Source: Pseudomonas aeruginosa (GTDB lineage: Bacteria; Pseudomonadota; Gammaproteobacteria; Pseudomonadales; Pseudomonadaceae). From it: DNA of 32,000 bases. Every line of letters starts with the position of its first letter. Within the stretch, counting starts at the first letter, position 1. A model generated the notes under the pieces. It was not told the DNA's origin, made no database searches, and worked only from the letters and a program-made list of their open reading frames with translations. Below are positions 9,129-32,000 of the stretch, in pieces. The DNA lies in assembly GCF_001457615.1 (NCBI RefSeq), contig NZ_LN831024.1, positions 2,370,001-2,402,000 on the forward strand, written 5' to 3'. Position numbers and translations under genes: made by a program.

Positions 9129-9599
9129 TTATTCGCTGACCGCTTTCTCGACCTTTTCGGACGCCGACCAGATCCGATAGCGGACCTCCACGTCCTTCGG
9201 CGCATAGACCACGATCGGCAGCTTGCTGTTGTAGCGCAGCAGGAAGCCTTCGCCGACCACCGGGATGAAGCGCTGCTCCTTCTTCTGGCCGGGGCAGGCC
9301 ATCATCGTGCTCATCGGCCCGCTGACCTTGTCCAGGCGGTAGTAGGAGTAGCCCCAGCCTTCCAGGGTATGTTCTTCCAGCTCGCCGCCCAGGCGCTGCT
9401 GGTTGCAGTCGGCCTCGAGGGTCTTGCCGGCGATGATCTCGACCTTGAATGCGTCTTCCGCGTCCTGTTTCGGCAGGTGGATGACCTGGCGGGTGAAGCC
9501 GGCATCTGCCTTCGGGTAGGGAACCTTTTCATCCAGTTTGGCGGCCATGGCGGTGCTGGAAAGAGCGGCAACGCCGGCGGCGATCAGTAGTGCTTTCAT
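9129..9599 (-). CDS. eco: Ecotin (periplasmic serine-protease inhibitor)
   Basis: The ATG at 9599 has a GGAGAA RBS and the product begins with a signal peptide [19 protein letters not shown]. It is collinear with E. coli ecotin (PYPKA..., LEGWGYSYY, reactive-site loop [22 protein letters not shown]). Confidence 0.92.
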
Positions 9600-9733
9600 G
9601 TCCTTGAGGTTCTCCTTACGTGGTAACGCGAGCAGGGTAAGACACCGAGGCACGGGTGAAAAGTTCAGTGGGGGACGTAACGGAATGTTCCATGTCCTGG
9701 GCCAGCTGGTCGGGGCACGGCCGAATCGCGGGC

Positions 9734-9771
9734 AAAAAAAAGACCATCTGCGGGGGGAGGGCGATGGTCTT
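9734..9771 (-). terminator. Candidate rho-independent terminator about 175 nt downstream of the DUF2789 gene
   Basis: Stem AAGACCATC (9740-9748) / GATGGTCTT (9763-9771) with a 14-nt loop. On the minus strand it is followed by T8 (plus-strand A-tract 9734-9741). Confidence 0.45.
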
Positions 9772-9946
9772 CAAAGGAGCGTCGGGGACTTGGGGTTCTC
9801 CCGACGTCGCTACGATCTCACGCCGCTCCGCTGGGGAAAAATGCTTTGGACTGATAGTGGCTATCGATGCCGGTGACTTGAAATTCCCCGCCAACTCATA
9901 GCAAGTTCCGCACGATAGAGCCGTCAGCGCATCAGTTTGCGTTTTT

Positions 9947-11058: not shown

Positions 11059-11433
11059 TCAGGATGCCCCGGCCTCGCCGCGCAGGTAGCGGTCGAGGTC
11101 GATCGCTTCGCCGCTCTTGAGTTTCAGGCGTCGGCGCAGGTCGTCGAACATAGCGTCGTACTCGCGGCGCTGGCGCACGATCGGTCCCTGCCGCAAGCGC
11201 AGGCCGTGGCGTCGGGCCAGGCGACTGGCACGGCTGGCGAAATGCACGGCGGCGTCGCGTGGCAGTTCGAAGCTTTCGCTGAAAGGCTGGCCGTCGATCC
11301 GGCCCTCCATGTCGAAGTGTACGGCCACCGGGCGGGCCTCGGCCTCCAGGACCCGGTAGCGCAGGTGGATATCGAATGCCTGGCGGTCGACTTCGCTGGC
11401 CGAGGCGAGATGCAGATGGCCGGGAATGAACAT
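11059..11433 (-). CDS. Hypothetical protein (124 aa)
   Basis: C-terminal part of the 401-aa ORF. The ATG at 11433 is preceded by a perfect AAGGAGG. The upstream extension overlaps the YqaA gene on the other strand and looks non-coding. Confidence 0.7.
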   Translation of the reverse strand: MFIPGHLHLASASEVDRQAFDIHLRYRVLEAEARPVAVHFDMEGRIDGQPFSESFELPRDAAVHFASRASRLARRHGLRLRQGPIVRQRREYDAMFDDLRRRLKLKSGEAIDLDRYLRGEAGAS

Positions 11434-19250: not shown

Positions 19251-19499
19251 AGCGAGGCCGGGCGAACTGACCGCTCGTCAGCTCGCCGCGGATGCTTTAC
19301 CATGGGCGCTTCGCGCCGGATCAGCTCCGGCGTTTTTCGTCAGTATCCATTCCCAGTGATCTCCGTCCGCGCGCTTCGGCGCAGGGGTGCCGCAAGGCGC
19401 CTGCCACTGTGAGGCAGGCCGGCCCGGCGGGCGACGCTTACTGGCACATCCCAACCCACGTGGCCTTTGGTAGGGGTCACCACTAGGAGAGGAGGCGCC

Positions 19500-26868: not shown

Positions 26869-26946
<78 letters not shown>

Positions 26947-27129: not shown

Positions 27130-27459
27130 TCACGCTGCGTTTGATGTTTGCTTTAGTACCATATCCAACTCCGGGTTCAGGTACGTGATTGGTGCCAGCG
27201 GCCAATTCCTGATGTTGCCGCTCCAGCGCTCCGGCTGTCGTGCGTGCGCCACCTCATACAGATCGATACGTCTTTTCAGCAGTTTTTCCGCCTGGCCGGC
27301 ATGTCGCTGCGCCGGGGTCACGAACTTCAGTGCTCTGTGGCGGTGCTGGTGGTTGTACCAGTCCACGAAACGGTTTGCCCAGATCTTGGCTTGCTCGAGC
27401 ATATCGAAGGGCCGCTCCGGCCACAGTGGGCAGTACATGACCGTGCGGAATAGGCTTTG
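27130..27459 (-). mobile_element. Truncated IS3-family transposase (OrfB/rve C-terminal ~110 codons only)
   Basis: Product ...QSLFRTVMYCPLWPERPFDMLEQAKIWANRFVDWYNHQHRHRALKFVTPAQRHAGQ...RQPERWSGNIRNW matches the C-terminal end of IS3-family integrase-core transposases. An in-frame stop lies at 27460-27462, and no catalytic DDE region or OrfA is present. Confidence 0.75.
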
Positions 27460-27485: not shown

Positions 27486-27725
27486 CTAGGGCATCACGCC
27501 CGGGTTCTGTATGGCATGCCAGCATGGTCGAGCCCTTCCCTGATCGACATACCCCGCTCGAAGCCATTTGCGCAGAATCGCTTTATCCATGGGCGTGTTG
27601 GCGAGCAGCCAGTCGCGGCTGATGTTTTCGAAACAGCCACGAATATCCCCCTCGAGGACCCAATGCGCTGACGCGCTTTGCCTGCGCATGATCGTGATTG
27701 CATGGAGCTTCGTTTCTGAAGTGAT
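27486..27725 (-). pseudogene. Internal fragment (~80 codons) of a group II intron-type reverse transcriptase
   Basis: Product ...KLHAITIMRRQSASAHWVLEGDIRGCFENISRDWLLANTPMDKAILRKWLRAGYVDQG matches the RT motif 2-3 region of bacterial group II intron ORFs. It lacks the N-terminus, the YADD motif, the maturase domain and the intron RNA ends. Confidence 0.7.
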
Positions 27726-27851
27726 CTACAGGCTAAGGCAGGACTCCCTGCGCAGCCCTATCGGTTATGCCTCATGAGAGGCATTTACCCCCGCGCTCAG
27801 AGCTGAGACTATCGATGGCAATATCAACATAGGTTGCAAAAGATTCGATAG

Positions 27852-29657
27852 ATGGCTCTTTCGATAAATGATCTACAGGAAATGACCAGCGGGTTCGCTT
27901 CCACTGGATACGGATGCTCGAGCATTCCTTCCTCGCCGCAGAATCCAGTCATGCTGGAATGGACTGATGATGTGGGCGATTTCAGAAAATTTCGCCTCTG
28001 GGTTTATGAGATTACTCATGGTGGTGGCGGCCGTGACGCAAAGGAAAACCGTATCCAGATTACCAACGCTCCCTCCAAGGGGGATGGTATGGACCATGAC
28101 GGAGCCATTGACCTAGTCATGGGTTATTCGCCGAGTCGGCGTGTTCTGGTGGCCTATGACAGGCGATGGTTGGAGAAGCGCATGGAGAAGGGGGAGGGAT
28201 CCCCGTCGGTCCAGGTAAAAGAGGAGGACATTAACGCGGCGCTGGTTACAGGGATACACCGCGTTACCAAGGATGTTTCCTTCGGCGTGGCCAGCATTGT
28301 GACTCTTAAGCCCGAACTTTTTCCCGAATACCTCAAAAATCATGAGGCCTTGCTATCAGGGGCGATGGCGACAAACAGCGTCCCCCAAATAACTGGAGGC
28401 ACCAACGTGTCACTCTGGCAATTCTGTCTTGATCGGGGCTTCTACTTTGAGCCAGACTTGCTGGCTAGGTATGTCGCATCCATTGCTGCTAAGCCATTTG
28501 TGATCCTGGCCGGTGTTAGCGGCACAGGCAAGTCGAAGATGGCGGAGCTGGTGGCGGAATTCTACTCTTCGACTAGGGAAGTGCTTCCAACTACTAAACC
28601 GGCAGGTCGTGCGCCTGCAGTTGGTGATGCATTTATCTTTGCCCCCGATAAATGCAAAAGCGATAAATCTCGTTTTGCCCTAGTGCCCGTGCGGCCTGAC
28701 TGGATCGACAATCAGTCCATTATCGGTTTTGTGAACCCGATCACCGGAAGATACGAGTCGACTCAAGCTCTAGACCTAATGCTCAGAGCCGCAAAGGCTC
28801 TGGAGGATGCCCCGGAAAAGGCTGCCGCCCCCCGTTATTTCATGCTACTCGATGAGATGAATTTGGCGCGCGTAGAGCACTATTTCAGCGACTGGCTTGC
28901 GTGTGCGGAGAGTAGGCGGTACCAACAAGACGGTGCGATCAGTCAGCAACCCATCCCACTGCATCGACATGCTGCGGCAACTGCCAGCCTCATCGGCCCA
29001 GGCCAGGCCGCTGTGGATGTGGACGTTCCAAATGCTCTACCTATCCCCACCAATCTGATAGTGACTGGTACCGTCAACGTCGACGAAACGACTTTTGGCT
29101 TCAGTCCTAAGGTGCTGGACCGTTCGATGGTGATTGAGTTCAATGACGTTGACTTGGATGGTATGAGGTATGGTGTTGCCGCAGCTGTTCAGAACGGCTA
29201 CCGCTTTCCTGAAGAATTACCGCCGTTCCGTTTACCTACGACCGCTGCGTTTAAGGATTTGTCACAAGAAGCGCATGACCACCTTGTTTCGATAAACCGG
29301 ATTTTGGAAAGGGCACAGCTTCACTTTGGCTACAGATCTGCCTCAGAGATCGGTTGTTTCATGCAGATTTATAGCAGCATCCTCCCTGAGGACGTAAACG
29401 ATACTGCTATGCTCCGAGCACTTGATGGGGCCGTTCTTCAGAAGATCTTGCCGCGTATTCAGGGGAACCGAGCCCGGCTGGAGGAAACTCTTTGCACTCT
29501 GCTTTGGTATTTCCGTGATCTCGCTATGCCCGGATCTGACCAGGACATTCAGACTATCAGGTGCGATGATGCAGCGAAGCTCCCGAAGTCTTATTGCCGT
29601 GGTTTTGAAATGCTGGAACGGTTGCGCGGATTCGGCTTTGTGACCTTTTTCAAGTGA
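27852..29657 (+). CDS. McrB-like AAA+ (AAA_5-type) NTPase with an unrecognised ~190-aa N-terminal domain
   Basis: 601-aa ORF. Walker A is GVSGTGKS (nt 28512-28535) and Walker B is LLDEMN (28845-28862). It has a McrB-type sensor/Arg-finger stretch NLIVTGTVNVDETTFGFSPKVLDRSMVIEF and a C-terminal helical lid (HFGYRSASEI...LDGAVLQKILPRIQG). Composition is lower-GC than the core genome. Confidence 0.85.
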   Translation: MALSINDLQEMTSGFASTGYGCSSIPSSPQNPVMLEWTDDVGDFRKFRLWVYEITHGGGGRDAKENRIQITNAPSKGDGMDHDGAIDLVMGYSPSRRVLVAYDRRWLEKRMEKGEGSPSVQVKEEDINAALVTGIHRVTKDVSFGVASIVTLKPELFPEYLKNHEALLSGAMATNSVPQITGGTNVSLWQFCLDRGFYFEPDLLARYVASIAAKPFVILAGVSGTGKSKMAELVAEFYSSTREVLPTTKPAGRAPAVGDAFIFAPDKCKSDKSRFALVPVRPDWIDNQSIIGFVNPITGRYESTQALDLMLRAAKALEDAPEKAAAPRYFMLLDEMNLARVEHYFSDWLACAESRRYQQDGAISQQPIPLHRHAAATASLIGPGQAAVDVDVPNALPIPTNLIVTGTVNVDETTFGFSPKVLDRSMVIEFNDVDLDGMRYGVAAAVQNGYRFPEELPPFRLPTTAAFKDLSQEAHDHLVSINRILERAQLHFGYRSASEIGCFMQIYSSILPEDVNDTAMLRALDGAVLQKILPRIQGNRARLEETLCTLLWYFRDLAMPGSDQDIQTIRCDDAAKLPKSYCRGFEMLERLRGFGFVTFFK

Positions 29658-31231
29658 GTAAGATTGCATTCGAATACCGCCCTCGGCGCTGCGATGGGTT
29701 GAGCTCAGCTCTTGTCGGGGACGTTGTCGACCTGGCGGAGAACGTCGAGTACGTCATTGAATTCCCGGAGGCGCCGTCTGCTTCGGAAGTTGGTGCACTG
29801 CTTGAAGTGGGCTATGAACCTATCGGTGACAAGATGGGCGTGCTGGCTTTCAAAAACTTTGTAGGGACGGCCCGCTTTGCCGGAGTGACCCTGCGGGTTT
29901 CCTCATCCAAACTCGGCGAGGAAGGGGTTTCTGGCCTGCTCGAGCAGGTATCGCGTTTATCATCGAACTTGGTGTTTGGGTGGCGTTCGCCCGCAGGCTT
30001 TTCCGCGATTGCGTCTGGGGACTCTAAGTCTCCAATTCCGTATCACCAGCTGCAGTTTCTGCGAGAAGTCATCCTTCGGCGGGAGGCAGGACTGCGCCTA
30101 CAAGATTTTTTTGCAGTTGTGGAACGGAATCCGACTCGGAGGTTTGTGTTGGAGCGGCCGGTAGTTCCCGCTGAGCGGGTTCGTAGCTTCGATGCGCGCT
30201 CGGTTACCGATATATTTAATCGGCCAGATCGACTGATTACGGTACGCGAGCACTACGCTGTCGCCGGTAGTCCGTTAGCACGGGCCCTCAAAATTGGGGT
30301 ACCTCCTGTAGAGCATTTTCCAGCGCGGGTATCAGTGTCATCACGGCGACTGTCTTTCGACACCCCCGAGAATCGCTTTGTCAAGCACTTTCTCGGAGAG
30401 TGCTTGACCATCGTATATAAGCTGCTCGATGACCGGAACATCCATATTCAAATGCGCTCCGATTGCCGGGAAATGGCAACCATTCTCGAGACAGCCTCGA
30501 GGTCGCTATTCCTATCAGAGGTCGGTGTTCTAACAGCATTCACTGGCCCTACTCATGCTCTTGCCAAGGTGGAGGGCTACAAGGACATTCTGGATCTTTG
30601 GCTGCAGCTGGGGGCGCATCAGTCCTTGCCCACTTCTGAAAGGGAGGTCCAACGGCTGCTCCAAGGAAAAGATGTCGCGCTGTTGTATGAGTATTGGGTG
30701 TTCCTCAAGGTGCTCGAAGCTGTTTCCTTGGTCATGGGCATCTCAGCTGGCTCTGTAACGGTTTCGCGCAGTGCCCTGGGCGAAGGTCTTGATCGCGGCC
30801 TTGTCGTGCGGCTGTCAGCCAGCGTAGCCGTCGCCTTCAACCCCTCCTACGTCAGGTCGGCTGGGGCCGCTTATTCTACTCCGCTAAGGCCGGACGTCGT
30901 TTTGACCCTCAATGGGGCGCGTTTTGCCTTTGACGCGAAGTATCGATTGCAGTGGCTGACATCGTTGGAGGATGGTCAAGATGATGAGGCTTCATTCGTC
31001 CGCGCTGATCTGTACAAAATGCACACATACCGGGATGCGATCACGGATATGAAGGCTGCCTTTGTGGTTTATCCGGGTACGGAGTTTGTGTTTTTTGAGA
31101 GGGGCGGCGGTCGGCGCCAGTGCCCTGGCGAAATTATGGTGTTCGATGGCGTTGGCGCCATTCCGGCGAGGCCGGATGGCGCCGAGGTATCGATGCTACT
31201 GGATCTGGTGCAGGCGTTACTCGATCAGTGA
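29654..31231 (+). CDS. DUF2357-like / McrC-analogous PD-(D/E)xK nuclease partner
   Basis: 525-aa ORF. Its GTG start overlaps the upstream stop (GTGA at 29654-29657). Motifs are FDTPENRFVKHFL (30356-), LLYEYWVF, LRPDVVLTLNGARFAFDAKYR (D414 at 30893-30895; D427/K429 at 30932-30940) and DLYKMHTYRDAI. Confidence 0.8.
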   Translation: MSKIAFEYRPRRCDGLSSALVGDVVDLAENVEYVIEFPEAPSASEVGALLEVGYEPIGDKMGVLAFKNFVGTARFAGVTLRVSSSKLGEEGVSGLLEQVSRLSSNLVFGWRSPAGFSAIASGDSKSPIPYHQLQFLREVILRREAGLRLQDFFAVVERNPTRRFVLERPVVPAERVRSFDARSVTDIFNRPDRLITVREHYAVAGSPLARALKIGVPPVEHFPARVSVSSRRLSFDTPENRFVKHFLGECLTIVYKLLDDRNIHIQMRSDCREMATILETASRSLFLSEVGVLTAFTGPTHALAKVEGYKDILDLWLQLGAHQSLPTSEREVQRLLQGKDVALLYEYWVFLKVLEAVSLVMGISAGSVTVSRSALGEGLDRGLVVRLSASVAVAFNPSYVRSAGAAYSTPLRPDVVLTLNGARFAFDAKYRLQWLTSLEDGQDDEASFVRADLYKMHTYRDAITDMKAAFVVYPGTEFVFFERGGGRRQCPGEIMVFDGVGAIPARPDGAEVSMLLDLVQALLDQ

Positions 31232-32000
31232 ACCTTGTTCTGGTTGTGACGCTTTCTCCATAAGTTCTCGGATGTCTGAGAAGTCGACAAAAATACTGGC
31301 ATCCGTGGAGGCCAGGCGGCGCATTACTTCCGCATGAATTCCCTGGACGCCGCGGACCGCAAATTGGGGGGTGGTGGCAAGCTCGGCTACTAACGCCGGA
31401 AGGTCGAATGCCTTGGCTGTCTTCCTGGGTGGGGTTGTCTTGACCTTCTCGGGTTTGCGAAGGTTCATCACTACGTCGAAATGGGCGACGTCCTCCTGCC
31501 CGCTGCGACCCTTGTAGCCTTTGTGGCTCTGTTGCTTGCGATCAAGGGATGCCGCCTCATGGAACTCAAAGCCTGCTTCCTTCGCCGCGCTCTGAAGGGC
31601 TGCCCAGACTCCTCCGTCGGTGTTATGGAAGACGACAGTGGCCCAACCGCCCGGTTTAAGTACACGAGCTATCTCGCGCATTGCTCCCGTCATTAGTGCT
31701 TCATACCCAGCCAGTGTCTTACCGCCGGCCGATTCGGCAAGTGATTTGTTGACAACCGCCTCATTGGTTGGGTCCGTGATTCTGCCAAGCCATGACTCCC
31801 AGATCAGGTTGCAGTCGGCGTAAAAAAGGTTCGATCCGAAGGGCGGGTCAGTGAAGACATAGTCAATGCTCCCGTCTTGCACATCTGCAAGGTCGGTGGC
31901 GCTCCCGTTCAAGACAAACGGCATCTGTTCGGCCGTAGGCTGGAAGGTGGCATAGTATCTTTTCAACTGCGCGATCTTGTTGCGCATGACTTCGAAAACG
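31217..32000 (-). CDS. DNA (N6-adenine or N4-cytosine type) methyltransferase, C-terminal part; the ORF stays open to the window edge
   Basis: Motif IV is IDYVFTDPPFG (DPPF at 31838-31849), followed by ARVLKPGGWATVVFHN. No FxGxG AdoMet motif lies downstream of DPPF, so it must lie upstream, beyond 32000. There is no in-frame stop between 31988 and 32000. Its 3' end overlaps the nuclease gene by 15 nt. Confidence 0.8.
   Translation of the reverse strand, partial: VFEVMRNKIAQLKRYYATFQPTAEQMPFVLNGSATDLADVQDGSIDYVFTDPPFGSNLFYADCNLIWESWLGRITDPTNEAVVNKSLAESAGGKTLAGYEALMTGAMREIARVLKPGGWATVVFHNTDGGVWAALQSAAKEAGFEFHEAASLDRKQQSHKGYKGRSGQEDVAHFDVVMNLRKPEKVKTTPPRKTAKAFDLPALVAELATTPQFAVRGVQGIHAEVMRRLASTDASIFVDFSDIRELMEKASQPEQGSLIE

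What the first reader, a model, noticed from the sequence alone, without database searches (positions are those of the whole stretch)
27852..32000. tRNA-Pro island cargo: coupled McrB-like NTPase and DUF2357-type nuclease converging on a DNA methyltransferase; candidate composite, poorly characterised defence system
Seen in sequence: two genes are fused by a GTGA start/stop overlap (29654-29657). The first has the McrB/AAA_5 motif set (GVSGTGKS, LLDEMN, NLIVTGTVNVDET...VLDRS). The second has a DUF2357-like core (FDTPENRF) and a C-terminal PD...D-A-K nuclease signature (RPDVVL...FAFDAKY). Their 3' end overlaps by 15 nt the 3' end of a minus-strand methyltransferase (FTDPPF) that continues past the window. 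The whole block is more AT-rich than the flanking core and sits beside mobile-element scars at a tRNA gene.

Established knowledge: McrBC is a modification-dependent (type IV) restriction enzyme. LlaJI shows that McrB/McrC-like subunits can instead act as the restriction half of a methylation-protected R-M system.

Inference: this locus is either (a) a type IV enzyme beside an unrelated methylase, (b) a LlaJI-like methylation-protected system, or (c) one edge of a larger multi-gene methylation-associated defence locus. Option (c) would resemble the DUF1156/DUF499-type or MADS-type loci reported in P. aeruginosa; I cannot verify that similarity here. The sequence past 32000 is needed to decide.
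Basis: partly seen in the sequence, partly recalled or inferred. Interest (0 to 1): 0.85.

Follow-up and report, generated by a model that had tools for sequence, protein, structure and literature searches.

The report
McrBC-type restriction enzyme with own methylase
This is a self-contained three-gene restriction-modification module in a known Pseudomonas aeruginosa defence hotspot: a double DNA methylase that most likely marks the host's own DNA, and a motor-plus-nuclease pair of the McrBC type that most likely cuts unmarked DNA. The general kind is already known from two tested systems, but this widespread family has never been tested.

Summary
ORF A (27852-29657) is an McrB-type NTPase with an N-terminal MTaX1 domain. 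ORF B (29654-31231) is a McrC-type DUF2357 + PD-(D/E)xK nuclease, joined to A by a GTGA overlap. A minus-strand methylase overlaps B's 3' end by 15 nt and runs off the window.

Extending the contig shows a roughly 1,289-aa methylase: an HTH domain plus two intact, paralogous amino-methyltransferase modules. The trio is not a chance neighbourhood. All 12 genome loci found through ORF A that reach far enough have the same order and convergent orientation. The two gene ends overlap by 4-38 nt in 15 of 15 loci. A palindrome, TTGACA-N5-TGTCAA, precedes the methylase in 14 of 14 loci.

No fourth gene is conserved, so the MADS, DUF1156 and BREX readings fail. In the reverse survey, 39 of 39 methylase loci with good flanks encode an MTaX1 protein, fused to McrB, HNH or GmrSD-N.

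Best reading: a methylation-protected, NTP-driven R-M system that works like LlaJI and PcaI. The NTPase carries the uncharacterised NxD signature. Bell et al. (2024) flagged this methylase association but deferred describing it. I rate it a new variant of a known kind, of moderate interest.

The parts
26870..26946 (+). tRNA-Pro(GGG). It marks the left edge of the variable region, the P. aeruginosa core defence hotspot cDHS1.
   Evidence: ARAGORN. Johnson et al. 2023 define the left flank of cDHS1 as pheS/pheT, ihfA, MerR and a proline tRNA. The flanking genes are confirmed.
27130..27438 (-). Remnant of an IS3-type transposase (C-terminal integrase-core fragment). It is context, not part of the module.
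   Evidence: Pfam rve_3, E 9.7e-6, covering only profile positions 33-67 of 67. Called as an rve_3 (weak) gene in L001-L003.
27486..27689 (-). Possible remnant of a reverse transcriptase. Weak evidence; context only.
   Evidence: Pfam RVT_1, E 0.012, 15.8 bits, below threshold.
27784..27812 (+). Promoter-like element of the restriction operon: TTTACC, a 17-nt spacer, then GACTAT. It lies about 40 nt upstream of the ATG.
   Evidence: The element is shared by three Pseudomonas variants of the module whose proteins are only 68-77% identical: TTTACC-N17-GA(C/G)(T/C)AT, with CAGAGCTGAGA in the spacer (sequence). Promoter function is inferred. The consensus scan did not flag it.
27852..28376 (+). 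MTaX1 ('methylase-associated X1') domain of ORF A, residues about 1-175. It is the presumed target or methylation-state reader, or a methylase-docking domain.
   Evidence: Pfam PF20296, 59.8 bits against a cut-off of 25. The AlphaFold model of residues 1-183 has pLDDT 91. No solved structure matches at E<0.001; the best match is the SPARDA nuclease-domain protein at E 0.04. An MTaX1 ORF accompanies this methylase family in 39 of 39 well-flanked loci.
27852..29657 (+). ORF A, 601 aa: an MTaX1 domain plus an McrB-type AAA+ NTPase. Walker A is GVSGTGKS (221-228). Walker B is LLDEMN (332-337). The signature is N409-V-D411-E412, the 'NxD' variant.
   Evidence: invariant residues. The model has pLDDT 86, and its Foldseek matches are BchI, NorQ, MCM, dynein and RavA AAA+ proteins. 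McrB homology is transitive: a Salinibacter DUF3578 protein matches ORF A at 9e-27 and matches solved E. coli and T. gammatolerans McrB at 1.8e-11 and 1.2e-6. Motifs align.
29654..31231 (+). ORF B, 525 aa: a McrC-type subunit. It has a DUF2357 domain (residues 61-316, including FDTPENRF) and a PD-(D/E)xK nuclease (D414, D427, K429). Its GTG start overlaps ORF A's TGA stop (GTGA, 29654-29657).
   Evidence: Pfam DUF2357 82.9 bits, PDDEXK_7 63.6 bits and McrBC 24.2 bits, all above their cut-offs. Catalytic residues are invariant in 42 homologues. The GTGA overlap is shown.
31217..32000 (-). The last 261 codons of the methylase gene, covering motif IV (DPPF) and the end of its second module. The gene continues beyond the window to an ATG at window-equivalent position 35086 (L004 15433).
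   Evidence: There is no upstream stop in the window. PADLOC MTase_II PDLC03312 matches positions 1089-1344 of 1344, E 9e-181. The full protein was read from L004, which is identical to the window over 12,347 nt.
31217..31231 (.). Tail-to-tail overlap of 15 nt between the nuclease gene and the methylase gene. It leaves no room for an intergenic terminator.
   Evidence: The overlap is 4-38 nt in all 15 loci examined.

Best explanation
This is a three-gene, methylation-protected restriction-modification system whose restriction enzyme is of the McrBC type.

Shown:
- The methylase is about 1,289 aa. It has an N-terminal Xre-type HTH domain and two paralogous amino-methyltransferase modules. Each module has FxGSG, a four-cysteine zinc ribbon and DPPF.
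- ORF A is an MTaX1 domain fused to an McrB-type NTPase with the NxD signature.
- ORF B is a McrC-type DUF2357 + PD-(D/E)xK nuclease.
- The three genes travel together across phyla.

Inferred:
- The two methylase modules methylate the two strands of an asymmetric site (m6A or m4C), as the two LlaJI methylases do.
- The HTH domain binds the conserved TTGACA-N5-TGTCAA palindrome in front of the methylase gene and sets the methylase level.
- ORF A forms a ring that ORF B plugs into, as in McrBC. Through MTaX1 the complex engages sites that lack the cognate methyl groups. It burns GTP or ATP to translocate, and ORF B cuts incoming DNA.
- The overlapping convergent gene ends couple expression of the two halves and keep them linked during transfer.
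For: 1. Conserved linkage. All 13 genome loci found through ORF A have ORF B next to it. All 12 that extend far enough have the methylase convergent on it. These loci come from Burkholderiales, Alphaproteobacteria, Acidobacteriota, Gemmatimonadota and Binatia. The methylase is 58-66% identical. No fourth gene is conserved.

2. Reverse test. Of 79 metagenome loci found through the methylase alone, 16 carry the same convergent pair. All 39 loci with at least 3 kb on both sides encode an MTaX1 protein.

3. Both methylase modules keep their catalytic, SAM-binding and zinc-ribbon residues in 12 sequences. In two genera the modules are separate genes, as in LlaJI.

4. The operator-like palindrome precedes the methylase in 14 of 14 loci.

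5. The 3' overlap is present in 15 of 15 loci.

6. The decay pattern is the one expected for R-M. ORF A is broken in L008, L014 and L011 (an IS insertion). The methylase is intact in L008 and L014; it lies off the contig in L011. No locus shows the reverse pattern.

7. Experimental precedents. In LlaJI and PcaI, an McrB-like NTPase plus a McrC/DUF2357 nuclease restrict unmethylated DNA and are held in check by a cognate methylase.

8. The module keeps its integrity in three P. aeruginosa variants that sit in different contexts.
Against: - Nothing here measures methylation, cleavage or phage resistance.
- MTaX1's other fusion partners (HNH_2, GmrSD_N) are typical of modification-dependent (type IV) enzymes. 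So are the extra EVE or DpnI_C reader domains on some homologues.
- MTaX1 has no recognisable DNA-binding fold. Its role as reader is therefore assumed.
- Direct similarity of ORF A to solved McrB is weak: hhalign probability 18%, and no McrB among the top 50 Foldseek matches.
- MTaX1 and the methylase are unusually well conserved for specificity determinants.
- The palindrome was not found in front of the restriction operon, so any control of restriction by the HTH domain is not supported.
Confidence: 0.62

Rival explanations
1. Methylase-guided restriction, as in type I, type III or BREX systems. The large methylase is the only sequence reader. MTaX1 is a docking domain that attaches interchangeable effectors (McrB/McrC, HNH, GmrSD-N) to the methylase. 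The methylase triggers them when it meets an unmodified site. Self DNA is still protected by methylation, but the restriction enzyme has no DNA specificity of its own.
For: - MTaX1 and this methylase family are an obligate pair, found together in 39 of 39 loci, whatever effector is attached.
- MTaX1 has no match to known DNA-binding folds.
- MTaX1 and the methylase are both highly conserved, as interacting surfaces would be.
- Stand-alone MTaX1 proteins sit directly downstream of the methylase in many loci.
- The methylase resembles PglX (PADLOC PglXI, 710 bits), and BREX defence depends on PglX.
Against: - The methylase and the restriction genes are transcribed convergently rather than as one operon.
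- In LlaJI and E. coli McrBC, the N-terminal domain of the McrB-type subunit is the DNA reader.
- No interaction was tested here.
Confidence: 0.22
2. Modification-dependent (type IV) or inverted, Pgl-like logic. ORF A/B attacks methylated DNA. The methylase is normally kept repressed by its HTH domain. Its role is to mark invading or progeny phage DNA for destruction, or to act as a toxic trigger.
For: - McrBC, GmrSD-N and HNH_2 are the classic effectors of type IV enzymes.
- Some ORF A homologues carry EVE or DpnI_C domains, which read modified DNA.
- The methylase resembles PglX.
- The methylase appears to be tightly autoregulated.
Against: - A nuclease triggered by its own linked methylase would kill the host unless further control genes exist, and none is conserved.
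- Methylating both strands with two intact modules is what maintenance of self-marking requires.
- Broken restriction genes occur beside intact methylases, and not the reverse.
- The two tested McrBC-plus-methylase systems both cut unmethylated DNA.
Confidence: 0.1
3. Chance adjacency: an ordinary type IV McrBC enzyme next to an unrelated orphan or type II methylase.
For: - Defence genes of unrelated systems do cluster in cDHS1.
- The genes are on opposite strands.
- PADLOC labels the methylase simply 'MTase_II'.
Against: - The same trio, in the same orientation and with overlapping ends, occurs in distant phyla and in three different P. aeruginosa contexts.
- The reciprocal survey gives the same pairing.
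Confidence: 0.02
4. One edge of a larger multi-gene methylation-associated system (MADS, DUF1156/DUF499, BREX or DISARM).
For: - There are weak PADLOC matches to mad2 (79 bits) and mad8 (E 0.046), and a match to PglXI.
- A type III Res fragment lies next to the methylase.
Against: - The neighbours beyond the methylase (194, 100 and 393 aa) have no counterpart in the 13 genome loci from other taxa, and nothing else is conserved. The 100-aa ORF does recur near the module in the two other P. aeruginosa variants.
- NCBIfam MAD2 and DUF1156 scores are roughly 2% of their cut-offs.
- No PglZ, BrxC, DrmA or DrmB gene lies within 8-10 kb.
Confidence: 0.02

Closest known systems
LlaJI R-M system (Lactococcus lactis plasmid pNP40; homologue in Helicobacter pylori)
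   Same: - The restriction enzyme is an McrB-related NTPase (R1) plus a McrC-related nuclease (R2).
- It attacks unmodified DNA at an asymmetric site.
- Two methyltransferase activities are needed for full protection (review text).
- Here there are also two intact methylase modules, and they are separate genes in two genera.
   Different: - R1.LlaJI reads DNA through a B3-type domain. ORF A has MTaX1, which matched no solved fold at E<0.001.
- ORF A has the NxD signature.
- Here the methylases are fused, carry an HTH domain, belong to the N6_N4 amino-methyltransferase family, and converge on the restriction genes.
- From memory, not checked here: LlaJI is a co-directional four-gene operon with HgaI-like m5C methylases.
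PcaI R-M system (Pectobacterium carotovorum RC5297; Birkholz et al. 2022, PMC8989522)
   Same: - It has a methylase plus a two-part restriction enzyme made of an AAA+ GTPase subunit and a DUF2357 nuclease subunit.
- It was shown to restrict unmethylated DNA and to defend against phage.
   Different: - M.PcaI is a single Dcm-like m5C methylase acting on CCNGG.
- PcaIB has extra N- and C-terminal extensions.
- Whether PcaIA has an MTaX1 domain or an NxD motif was not tested here.
E. coli K-12 McrBC (type IV)
   Same: - The operon runs NTPase then nuclease, with overlapping stop and start codons.
- It has Walker A/B motifs and an N-x(x)-D signature.
- McrC has a DUF2357 domain plus a PD-(D/E)xK nuclease, and the DTxxNR and DAKY motifs align.
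   Different: - McrBC requires methylated cytosine, reads it through DUF3578, has the NxxD signature and has no cognate methylase.
- Direct profile similarity to ORF A and ORF B is weak.
NxD-branch McrB GTPases: CoCoNuTs and their 'methyltransferase-associated' relatives (Bell et al. 2024, PMC11090510)
   Same: - ORF A has N-V-D followed by E, exactly the NxD-plus-E/D pattern that defines this branch.
- It shares DEMNLARVE(H/Y)YF and GTVN(V/I)DETT with long McrB-like plasmid proteins from Salinibacter and Thermococcus; the Salinibacter one carries a DUF3578 domain.
- That paper notes that many NxD GTPases sit beside DNA methyltransferases.
   Different: - ORF A and ORF B have no coiled coil and no RNA-binding, HEPN or Hsp70 domain. 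The nuclease is intact.
- No two-component regulator genes are present.
- The paper defers the methylase-associated group to a future publication, and no later paper was found.
BREX methylase PglX
   Same: The methylase scores 710 bits on the PADLOC PglXI model over residues 264-695.
   Different: - Its best PADLOC match is a type II methylase model, full length, 3,299 bits.
- No PglZ, BrxC, BrxL or BrxA gene is nearby.

Membership tests
McrB-type AAA+ NTPase | Walker A and Walker B motifs in an AAA+ fold of the MoxR/dynein/MCM clade | tested here: met
   GVSGTGKS and LLDEMN are invariant in 87 sequences. The model has pLDDT 86, and its top Foldseek matches are BchI, NorQ, MCM, dynein and RavA at E 1e-5 to 3e-4.
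McrB-type AAA+ NTPase | N-x(x)-D signature motif in place of sensor 1 | tested here: met
   N409, D411 and E412 are invariant. They align with NTAD of E. coli McrB. The pattern is NxD followed by E, as Bell et al. define it.
McrB-type AAA+ NTPase | Detectable homology to experimentally solved McrB | tested here: inconclusive
   Direct tests are negative or weak. phmmer and hmmsearch against the PDB found nothing. hhalign against E. coli McrB gave probability 18%, E 1.3e-3. No McrB appeared in the top 50 Foldseek matches. A transitive link is positive: Salinibacter L020:954-4364 matches ORF A at 9e-27 and PDB entries 6ut6 and 6ut3 at 1.8e-11 and 1.2e-6, over the same region.
McrB-type AAA+ NTPase | Encoded directly upstream of a McrC partner in one operon | tested here: met
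   GTGA overlap with a DUF2357/PD-(D/E)xK gene. The pair is adjacent in 13 of 13 genome loci and in 16 metagenome loci.
McrB-type AAA+ NTPase | GTP-dependent hexamer stimulated by McrC | not testable with these tools
   This needs biochemistry.
McrC family | N-terminal DUF2357 domain | tested here: met
   PF09823, 82.9 bits against a cut-off of 23.3, residues 61-316 over the whole profile.
McrC family | C-terminal PD-(D/E)xK nuclease with intact catalytic residues | tested here: met
   PDDEXK_7 scores 63.6 bits against 22.1. Pfam McrBC scores 24.2 bits against 23.9. P413-D414 and D427-A428-K429 are invariant in 42 sequences.
LlaJI/PcaI-like R-M (McrBC-type restriction enzyme with cognate methylase) | Conserved genetic linkage of the NTPase/nuclease pair with a DNA methylase | tested here: met
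   12 of the 12 genome loci that extend far enough. 16 metagenome loci found through the methylase. 3' overlap in 15 of 15 loci.
LlaJI/PcaI-like R-M (McrBC-type restriction enzyme with cognate methylase) | Restriction of unmethylated DNA and protection by the cognate methylation | not testable with these tools
   Only indirect evidence: broken ORF A beside an intact methylase in L008 and L014 and an IS insertion in L011. No locus shows the reverse.
LlaJI sensu stricto | B3-type DNA-binding domain at the N-terminus of R1 | tested here: not met
Type IV (modification-dependent) restriction | No cognate methylase; cuts only modified DNA | tested here: not met
   A cognate methylase is conserved. 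Substrate preference itself is untested.
MADS (methylation-associated defence system) | MAD2 methylase and the other mad genes | tested here: not met
   NCBIfam antiphage_MADS2 scores 11.3 bits against a cut-off of 720. PADLOC mad8 has E 0.046 at the P-loop only. No other mad-like gene is conserved.
DUF1156/DUF499-type system | DUF1156 methylase with DUF499 and DUF3780 partners | tested here: not met
   NCBIfam DUF1156_antiphage scores 19.8 bits against a cut-off of 1000. No such neighbours are present.
BREX | PglX together with PglZ and BrxC | tested here: not met
   There is only PglX-like similarity in the methylase. No PglZ or BrxC gene lies in the 8-10 kb flanks.
P. aeruginosa core defence hotspot cDHS1 | Left flank pheS/pheT-ihfA-MerR-tRNA-Pro; right flank a large DUF4011 gene | tested here: met
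   Left flank in the window and in L001-L004. The right-flank 2,098-aa Pkinase-DUF4011 gene is in L002, L003 and L021-L023. The definition is quoted.

The most novel reading that the evidence does not exclude
MTaX1 plus the HTH double methylase defines a large, unrecognised class of restriction-modification systems. One conserved methylase is served by swappable 'type IV-style' effectors: McrBC, HNH or GmrSD-N. MTaX1 would be either a new kind of reader that senses the absence of a methyl mark or a methylase-docking adaptor.

In the most radical version the logic is inverted, as in Pgl: the methylase marks invader DNA and the effectors destroy marked DNA. In either version, this would be the first functional handle on the uncharacterised NxD branch of McrB GTPases.
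Probability: 0.3. Interest if true: 0.7.

Novelty: new variant of a known kind. Interest (0 to 1): 0.5.

Why it matters
McrBC is the textbook enzyme that attacks methylated DNA, so its regular pairing with methylases was called surprising in the 2024 census, which left it undescribed.

This locus gives a clean, minimal example of about 7.3 kb and three genes. It has clear boundaries and a predicted operator. It is present in many P. aeruginosa isolates, including the type strain DSM 50071, so it can be tested directly.

- It could show how an NxD-type McrB motor works; according to the 2024 census, none had been characterised.
- It could show what the MTaX1 domain reads.
- It could show how one methylase family serves several different nucleases.

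Practically, the PADLOC protein models searched here recognise only the methylase fully. This system is therefore probably an uncounted barrier to phage therapy and to genetic manipulation of P. aeruginosa strains.

Tried and rejected
- Direct searches of ORF A and ORF B against solved structures, by single sequence and by profile, gave nothing useful.
- hhalign against single E. coli McrB and McrC sequences gave low probabilities (18% and 2%), although the motifs aligned.
- Foldseek of the full ORF A model returned generic AAA+ proteins and no McrB.
- Foldseek of the MTaX1 model returned no significant match. The faint matches to PD-(D/E)xK proteins (SPARDA nuclease domain, a RecU-like protein) are too weak to build on.
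- The Thermococcus plasmid homologue did not work as a bridge to solved McrB.
- I looked for the methylase operator upstream of the restriction operon. In the window there is a partial resemblance, TTGCAAAAGATT against TTGACAAAGATT. It is within chance expectation and is absent from the other loci, so I dropped it.
- The consensus scan for promoters and terminators found nothing informative around the module.
- Literature searches for PDC-M26, CoCoPALM, DUF2357 (2023 onward) and P. aeruginosa methylomes found no description of this system.
- The 1,369-aa methylase gene call was rejected in favour of a start at its Met81. In-frame stops lie just upstream of the equivalent position in L012 and L014. 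DNA homology between module variants ends at L004 15516.

Full report
**1.

The window has two co-directional ORFs, 27852-29657 (601 aa) and 29654-31231 (525 aa). They are joined by GTGA at 29654-29657.

A minus-strand ORF ends at 31217, so its 3' end overlaps the second ORF by 15 nt. The frame has no stop between 31988 and the window edge, so the gene runs on past the window.

- ORF A, 87 sequences: GVSGTGKS, D334-E335-M336-N337, T405-N409, D411-T414 and L422-R424.
- ORF B, 42 sequences: T237/E239/N240/F242, R412-P413-D414 and F426-D427-A428-K429.

The first 20 residues of ORF A are conserved. The ATG at 27852 is therefore the real start, not the shorter 568-aa call found in databases.

G+C falls from 0.62-0.70 in the core genes to 0.53-0.57 across the block.

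tRNA-Pro(GGG) lies at 26870-26946. It is followed by a transposase fragment and a weak reverse-transcriptase fragment.

**2. What the proteins are**

ORF B is a McrC-type subunit. DUF2357 (82.9 bits), PDDEXK_7 (63.6 bits) and the Pfam McrBC family (24.2 bits) all pass their thresholds.

ORF A is harder to place.
- Pfam sees only an N-terminal MTaX1 ('methylase-associated X1') domain and a sub-threshold P-loop match.
- Sequence searches against solved structures found nothing.
- An AlphaFold model (pLDDT 86) matches AAA+ proteins of the BchI/NorQ/MCM/dynein/RavA group, but no McrB appears in the top 50.
- hhalign against E. coli McrB gives only 18% probability, although Walker A, Walker B and the signature motif line up.

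The link to McrB comes through an intermediate. A Salinibacter DUF3578 protein matches ORF A residues 204-600 at 9e-27. Over the same region it matches solved E. coli and Thermococcus McrB at 1.8e-11 and 1.2e-6.

Together with the fused operon partner, this places ORF A in the McrB family. Its signature is N409-V-D411-E412. Bell et al. (2024) define an 'NxD' branch in which the motif is 'usually followed by a glutamate or a second aspartate'. They also state that no NxD McrB has been characterised.

**3. Beyond the window**

Looking up ORF B by exact sequence found it in 248 blocks of the public assembly index. The contigs read from these include L004, which is identical to the window over 12,347 nt.

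The methylase gene call is 1,369 aa, but the true start is its Met81, giving 1,289 aa.
- In two relatives, in-frame stops lie just upstream of the equivalent position.
- DNA similarity between module variants ends 83 nt upstream of that ATG.

The protein has an Xre-type HTH domain followed by two paralogous modules that are 42% identical to each other. Each module has FxGSG, a CxxC...CxxC zinc ribbon and DPPF. All these residues are invariant in 12 sequences.

PADLOC matches the protein full length to a type II methylase model. It also scores 710 bits on PglXI.

The closest solved relatives are M.RsrI, CcrM and N4-cytosine enzymes. They match only around the SAM-binding motif, so m6A and m4C cannot be told apart.

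Past the methylase lie three further ORFs:
- a 194-aa C-terminal fragment of a type III Res subunit;
- a 100-aa ORF;
- a 393-aa ORF.

**4. The trio is one module**

A scan of one genome per species with an ORF A profile returned 13 loci. They come from Burkholderiales, several alphaproteobacterial families, Acidobacteriota, Gemmatimonadota and Binatia.
- All 13 have ORF B directly after ORF A.
- All 12 that extend far enough have the methylase converging on it, at 58-66% identity.
- None has the Res fragment, the 100-aa ORF or the 393-aa ORF.
- Clustering all flanking ORFs found nothing else conserved; the other clusters were shadow frames of the three genes.

The 3' ends of the nuclease and methylase genes overlap by 4-38 nt in 15 of 15 loci.

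A palindrome, TTGACA-N5-TGTCAA, lies roughly 40-70 nt upstream of the methylase start in 14 of 14 loci. It is the likely operator of the fused HTH domain.

In Undibacterium and Rugamonas the two methylase modules are separate genes, split at the same point.

Two further P. aeruginosa variants, with proteins 68-90% identical, keep the trio.
- One sits in the same hotspot but inverted, with an additional MTaX1-HNH gene.
- The other sits in an ICE- or prophage-like region.

**5. Reverse survey**

A search of metagenome contigs with the methylase alone gave 79 loci.
- Sixteen carry the convergent McrB/McrC-type pair.
- An iterative MTaX1 profile found an MTaX1 ORF in all 39 loci with at least 3 kb on both sides.
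- The MTaX1 domain is fused to the McrB NTPase, to HNH or to GmrSD-N, or it stands alone directly after the methylase.
- Among 50%-identity representatives, MTaX1 is also fused to NOV_C. Some ORF A homologues carry an extra EVE or DpnI_C domain.

The constant pair is therefore the double methylase plus MTaX1, and the nuclease machinery is interchangeable.

**6. Mechanism**

The best-supported reading is a methylation-protected R-M system that works like LlaJI and PcaI. Both of those systems combine an McrB-like NTPase and a McrC/DUF2357 nuclease that cut unmethylated DNA, with a cognate methylase.

Support from this work:
- the conserved linkage;
- two active methylase modules, as expected for marking both strands of an asymmetric site;
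- the autoregulatory HTH and operator;
- the decay pattern. ORF A is frameshifted in L008 and L014 and split by an IS in L011. The methylase is intact in L008 and L014, and lies off the contig in L011.

What remains inferred:
- the substrate preference;
- the base that is modified;
- the role of MTaX1;
- the role of the overlapping convergent gene ends.

The main rival keeps R-M logic but makes the methylase the only DNA sensor and MTaX1 a docking adaptor.

A less likely rival is type IV or Pgl-like inverted logic. It is suggested by the type IV flavour of MTaX1's fusion partners.

Chance adjacency is refuted, and so is membership of MADS, DUF1156, BREX or DISARM.

**7. Context and novelty**

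The flanks define core defence hotspot 1 (cDHS1) of P. aeruginosa.
- Left flank: pheS/pheT, ihfA, MerR and tRNA-Pro.
- Right flank: a 2,098-aa kinase-DUF4011 gene.

The proteins are annotated 'hypothetical protein', 'DUF2357 domain-containing protein' and 'DNA methyltransferase'. They occur in many P. aeruginosa isolates, including the type strain DSM 50071.

PADLOC has no model for the nuclease. For ORF A it has only a partial match to the candidate PDC-M26A.

The census of Bell et al. noted that McrB branches, including NxD ones, are 'surprisingly' linked to methyltransferases, and deferred the description. I found no later paper.

The Aravind group mentions MTaX1 in passing as a possible modified-DNA discriminator.

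The kind of system is known and this family has been glimpsed, but its anatomy and function have not been described. I rate it a new variant of a known kind, with interest 0.5.

Noticed in passing
L004 15676-16260 (+), window-equivalent 35329-35913, outside the window: A 194-aa ORF starts 3 nt from the annotated methylase start. It is the C-terminal fragment (model positions 943-1127 of 1154, E 2.7e-71) of a type III-like restriction subunit. It is probably what remains of an older system that was truncated when the module arrived.
   Followed up: partly
L004 16289-16591 (-); also L021 4928-5230 and L024 15018-15320: A 100-aa ORF with no Pfam or PADLOC match lies near the module in all three P. 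aeruginosa variants, at 77-81% identity, in different neighbourhoods. It is absent from the non-Pseudomonas loci. In L004 it overlaps a 393-aa ORF that has weak CoiA_N and zinc-ribbon matches.
   Followed up: partly
L021 16020-17075 (+): In the cDHS1 variant that carries the 68%-identical module, a second MTaX1 protein fused to an HNH_2 nuclease (351 aa) sits about 1.5 kb from the methylase start. One methylase may therefore serve two different nucleases in the same strain.
   Followed up: partly
L034, L037, L038, L052, L061, L082 and others: The commonest architecture around this methylase family is not the McrBC type. It is a divergent MTaX1-HNH gene about 200 nt upstream, plus a stand-alone MTaX1 ORF directly downstream of the methylase. 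The role of an MTaX1 protein with no effector domain is unexplained.
   Followed up: partly
P0046 (encoded in L017) and P0105: Some ORF A homologues carry an extra N-terminal EVE domain or a DpnI_C domain in front of MTaX1. Both domains read modified DNA. The L017 locus still has the methylase. These may be enzymes that attack both unmarked DNA and foreign-marked DNA.
   Followed up: partly
L011 2394-4026; L008 about 9422-9923; L014 about 11278-11320: ORF A is interrupted by a 1.6-kb insertion encoding a 519-aa ORF, probably a transposase (not checked against Pfam), in L011. It appears frameshifted in L008 and L014. These are metagenome-assembled genomes, so the frameshifts could be assembly errors.
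   Followed up: partly
L005 4780-8732 and L006 8082-12055: In Undibacterium and Rugamonas the methylase is two adjacent genes, split at the same position between the two modules, rather than one fused gene.
   Followed up: partly
L002/L003 19300-21578: The right side of the hotspot carries a SymE-toxin homologue, a 448-aa ORF with no Pfam match, and the 2,098-aa kinase-DUF4011-helicase gene that marks the right flank of cDHS1. E. coli symE also sits next to mcrBC, which may be coincidence.
   Followed up: no
window 19258-19333 (+): Rfam finds the Pseudomonas sRNA P13 (105 bits) just upstream of thrS. Rfam at gathering threshold did not report the tRNA-Pro that ARAGORN finds at 26870-26946.
   Followed up: no
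L001 18032-19345 (-): In one strain background the region after the 393-aa ORF holds a 437-aa AAA_2 ATPase. It has weak matches to PADLOC candidates PDC-M37B and DolB, so it may be another defence gene in the hotspot.
   Followed up: no
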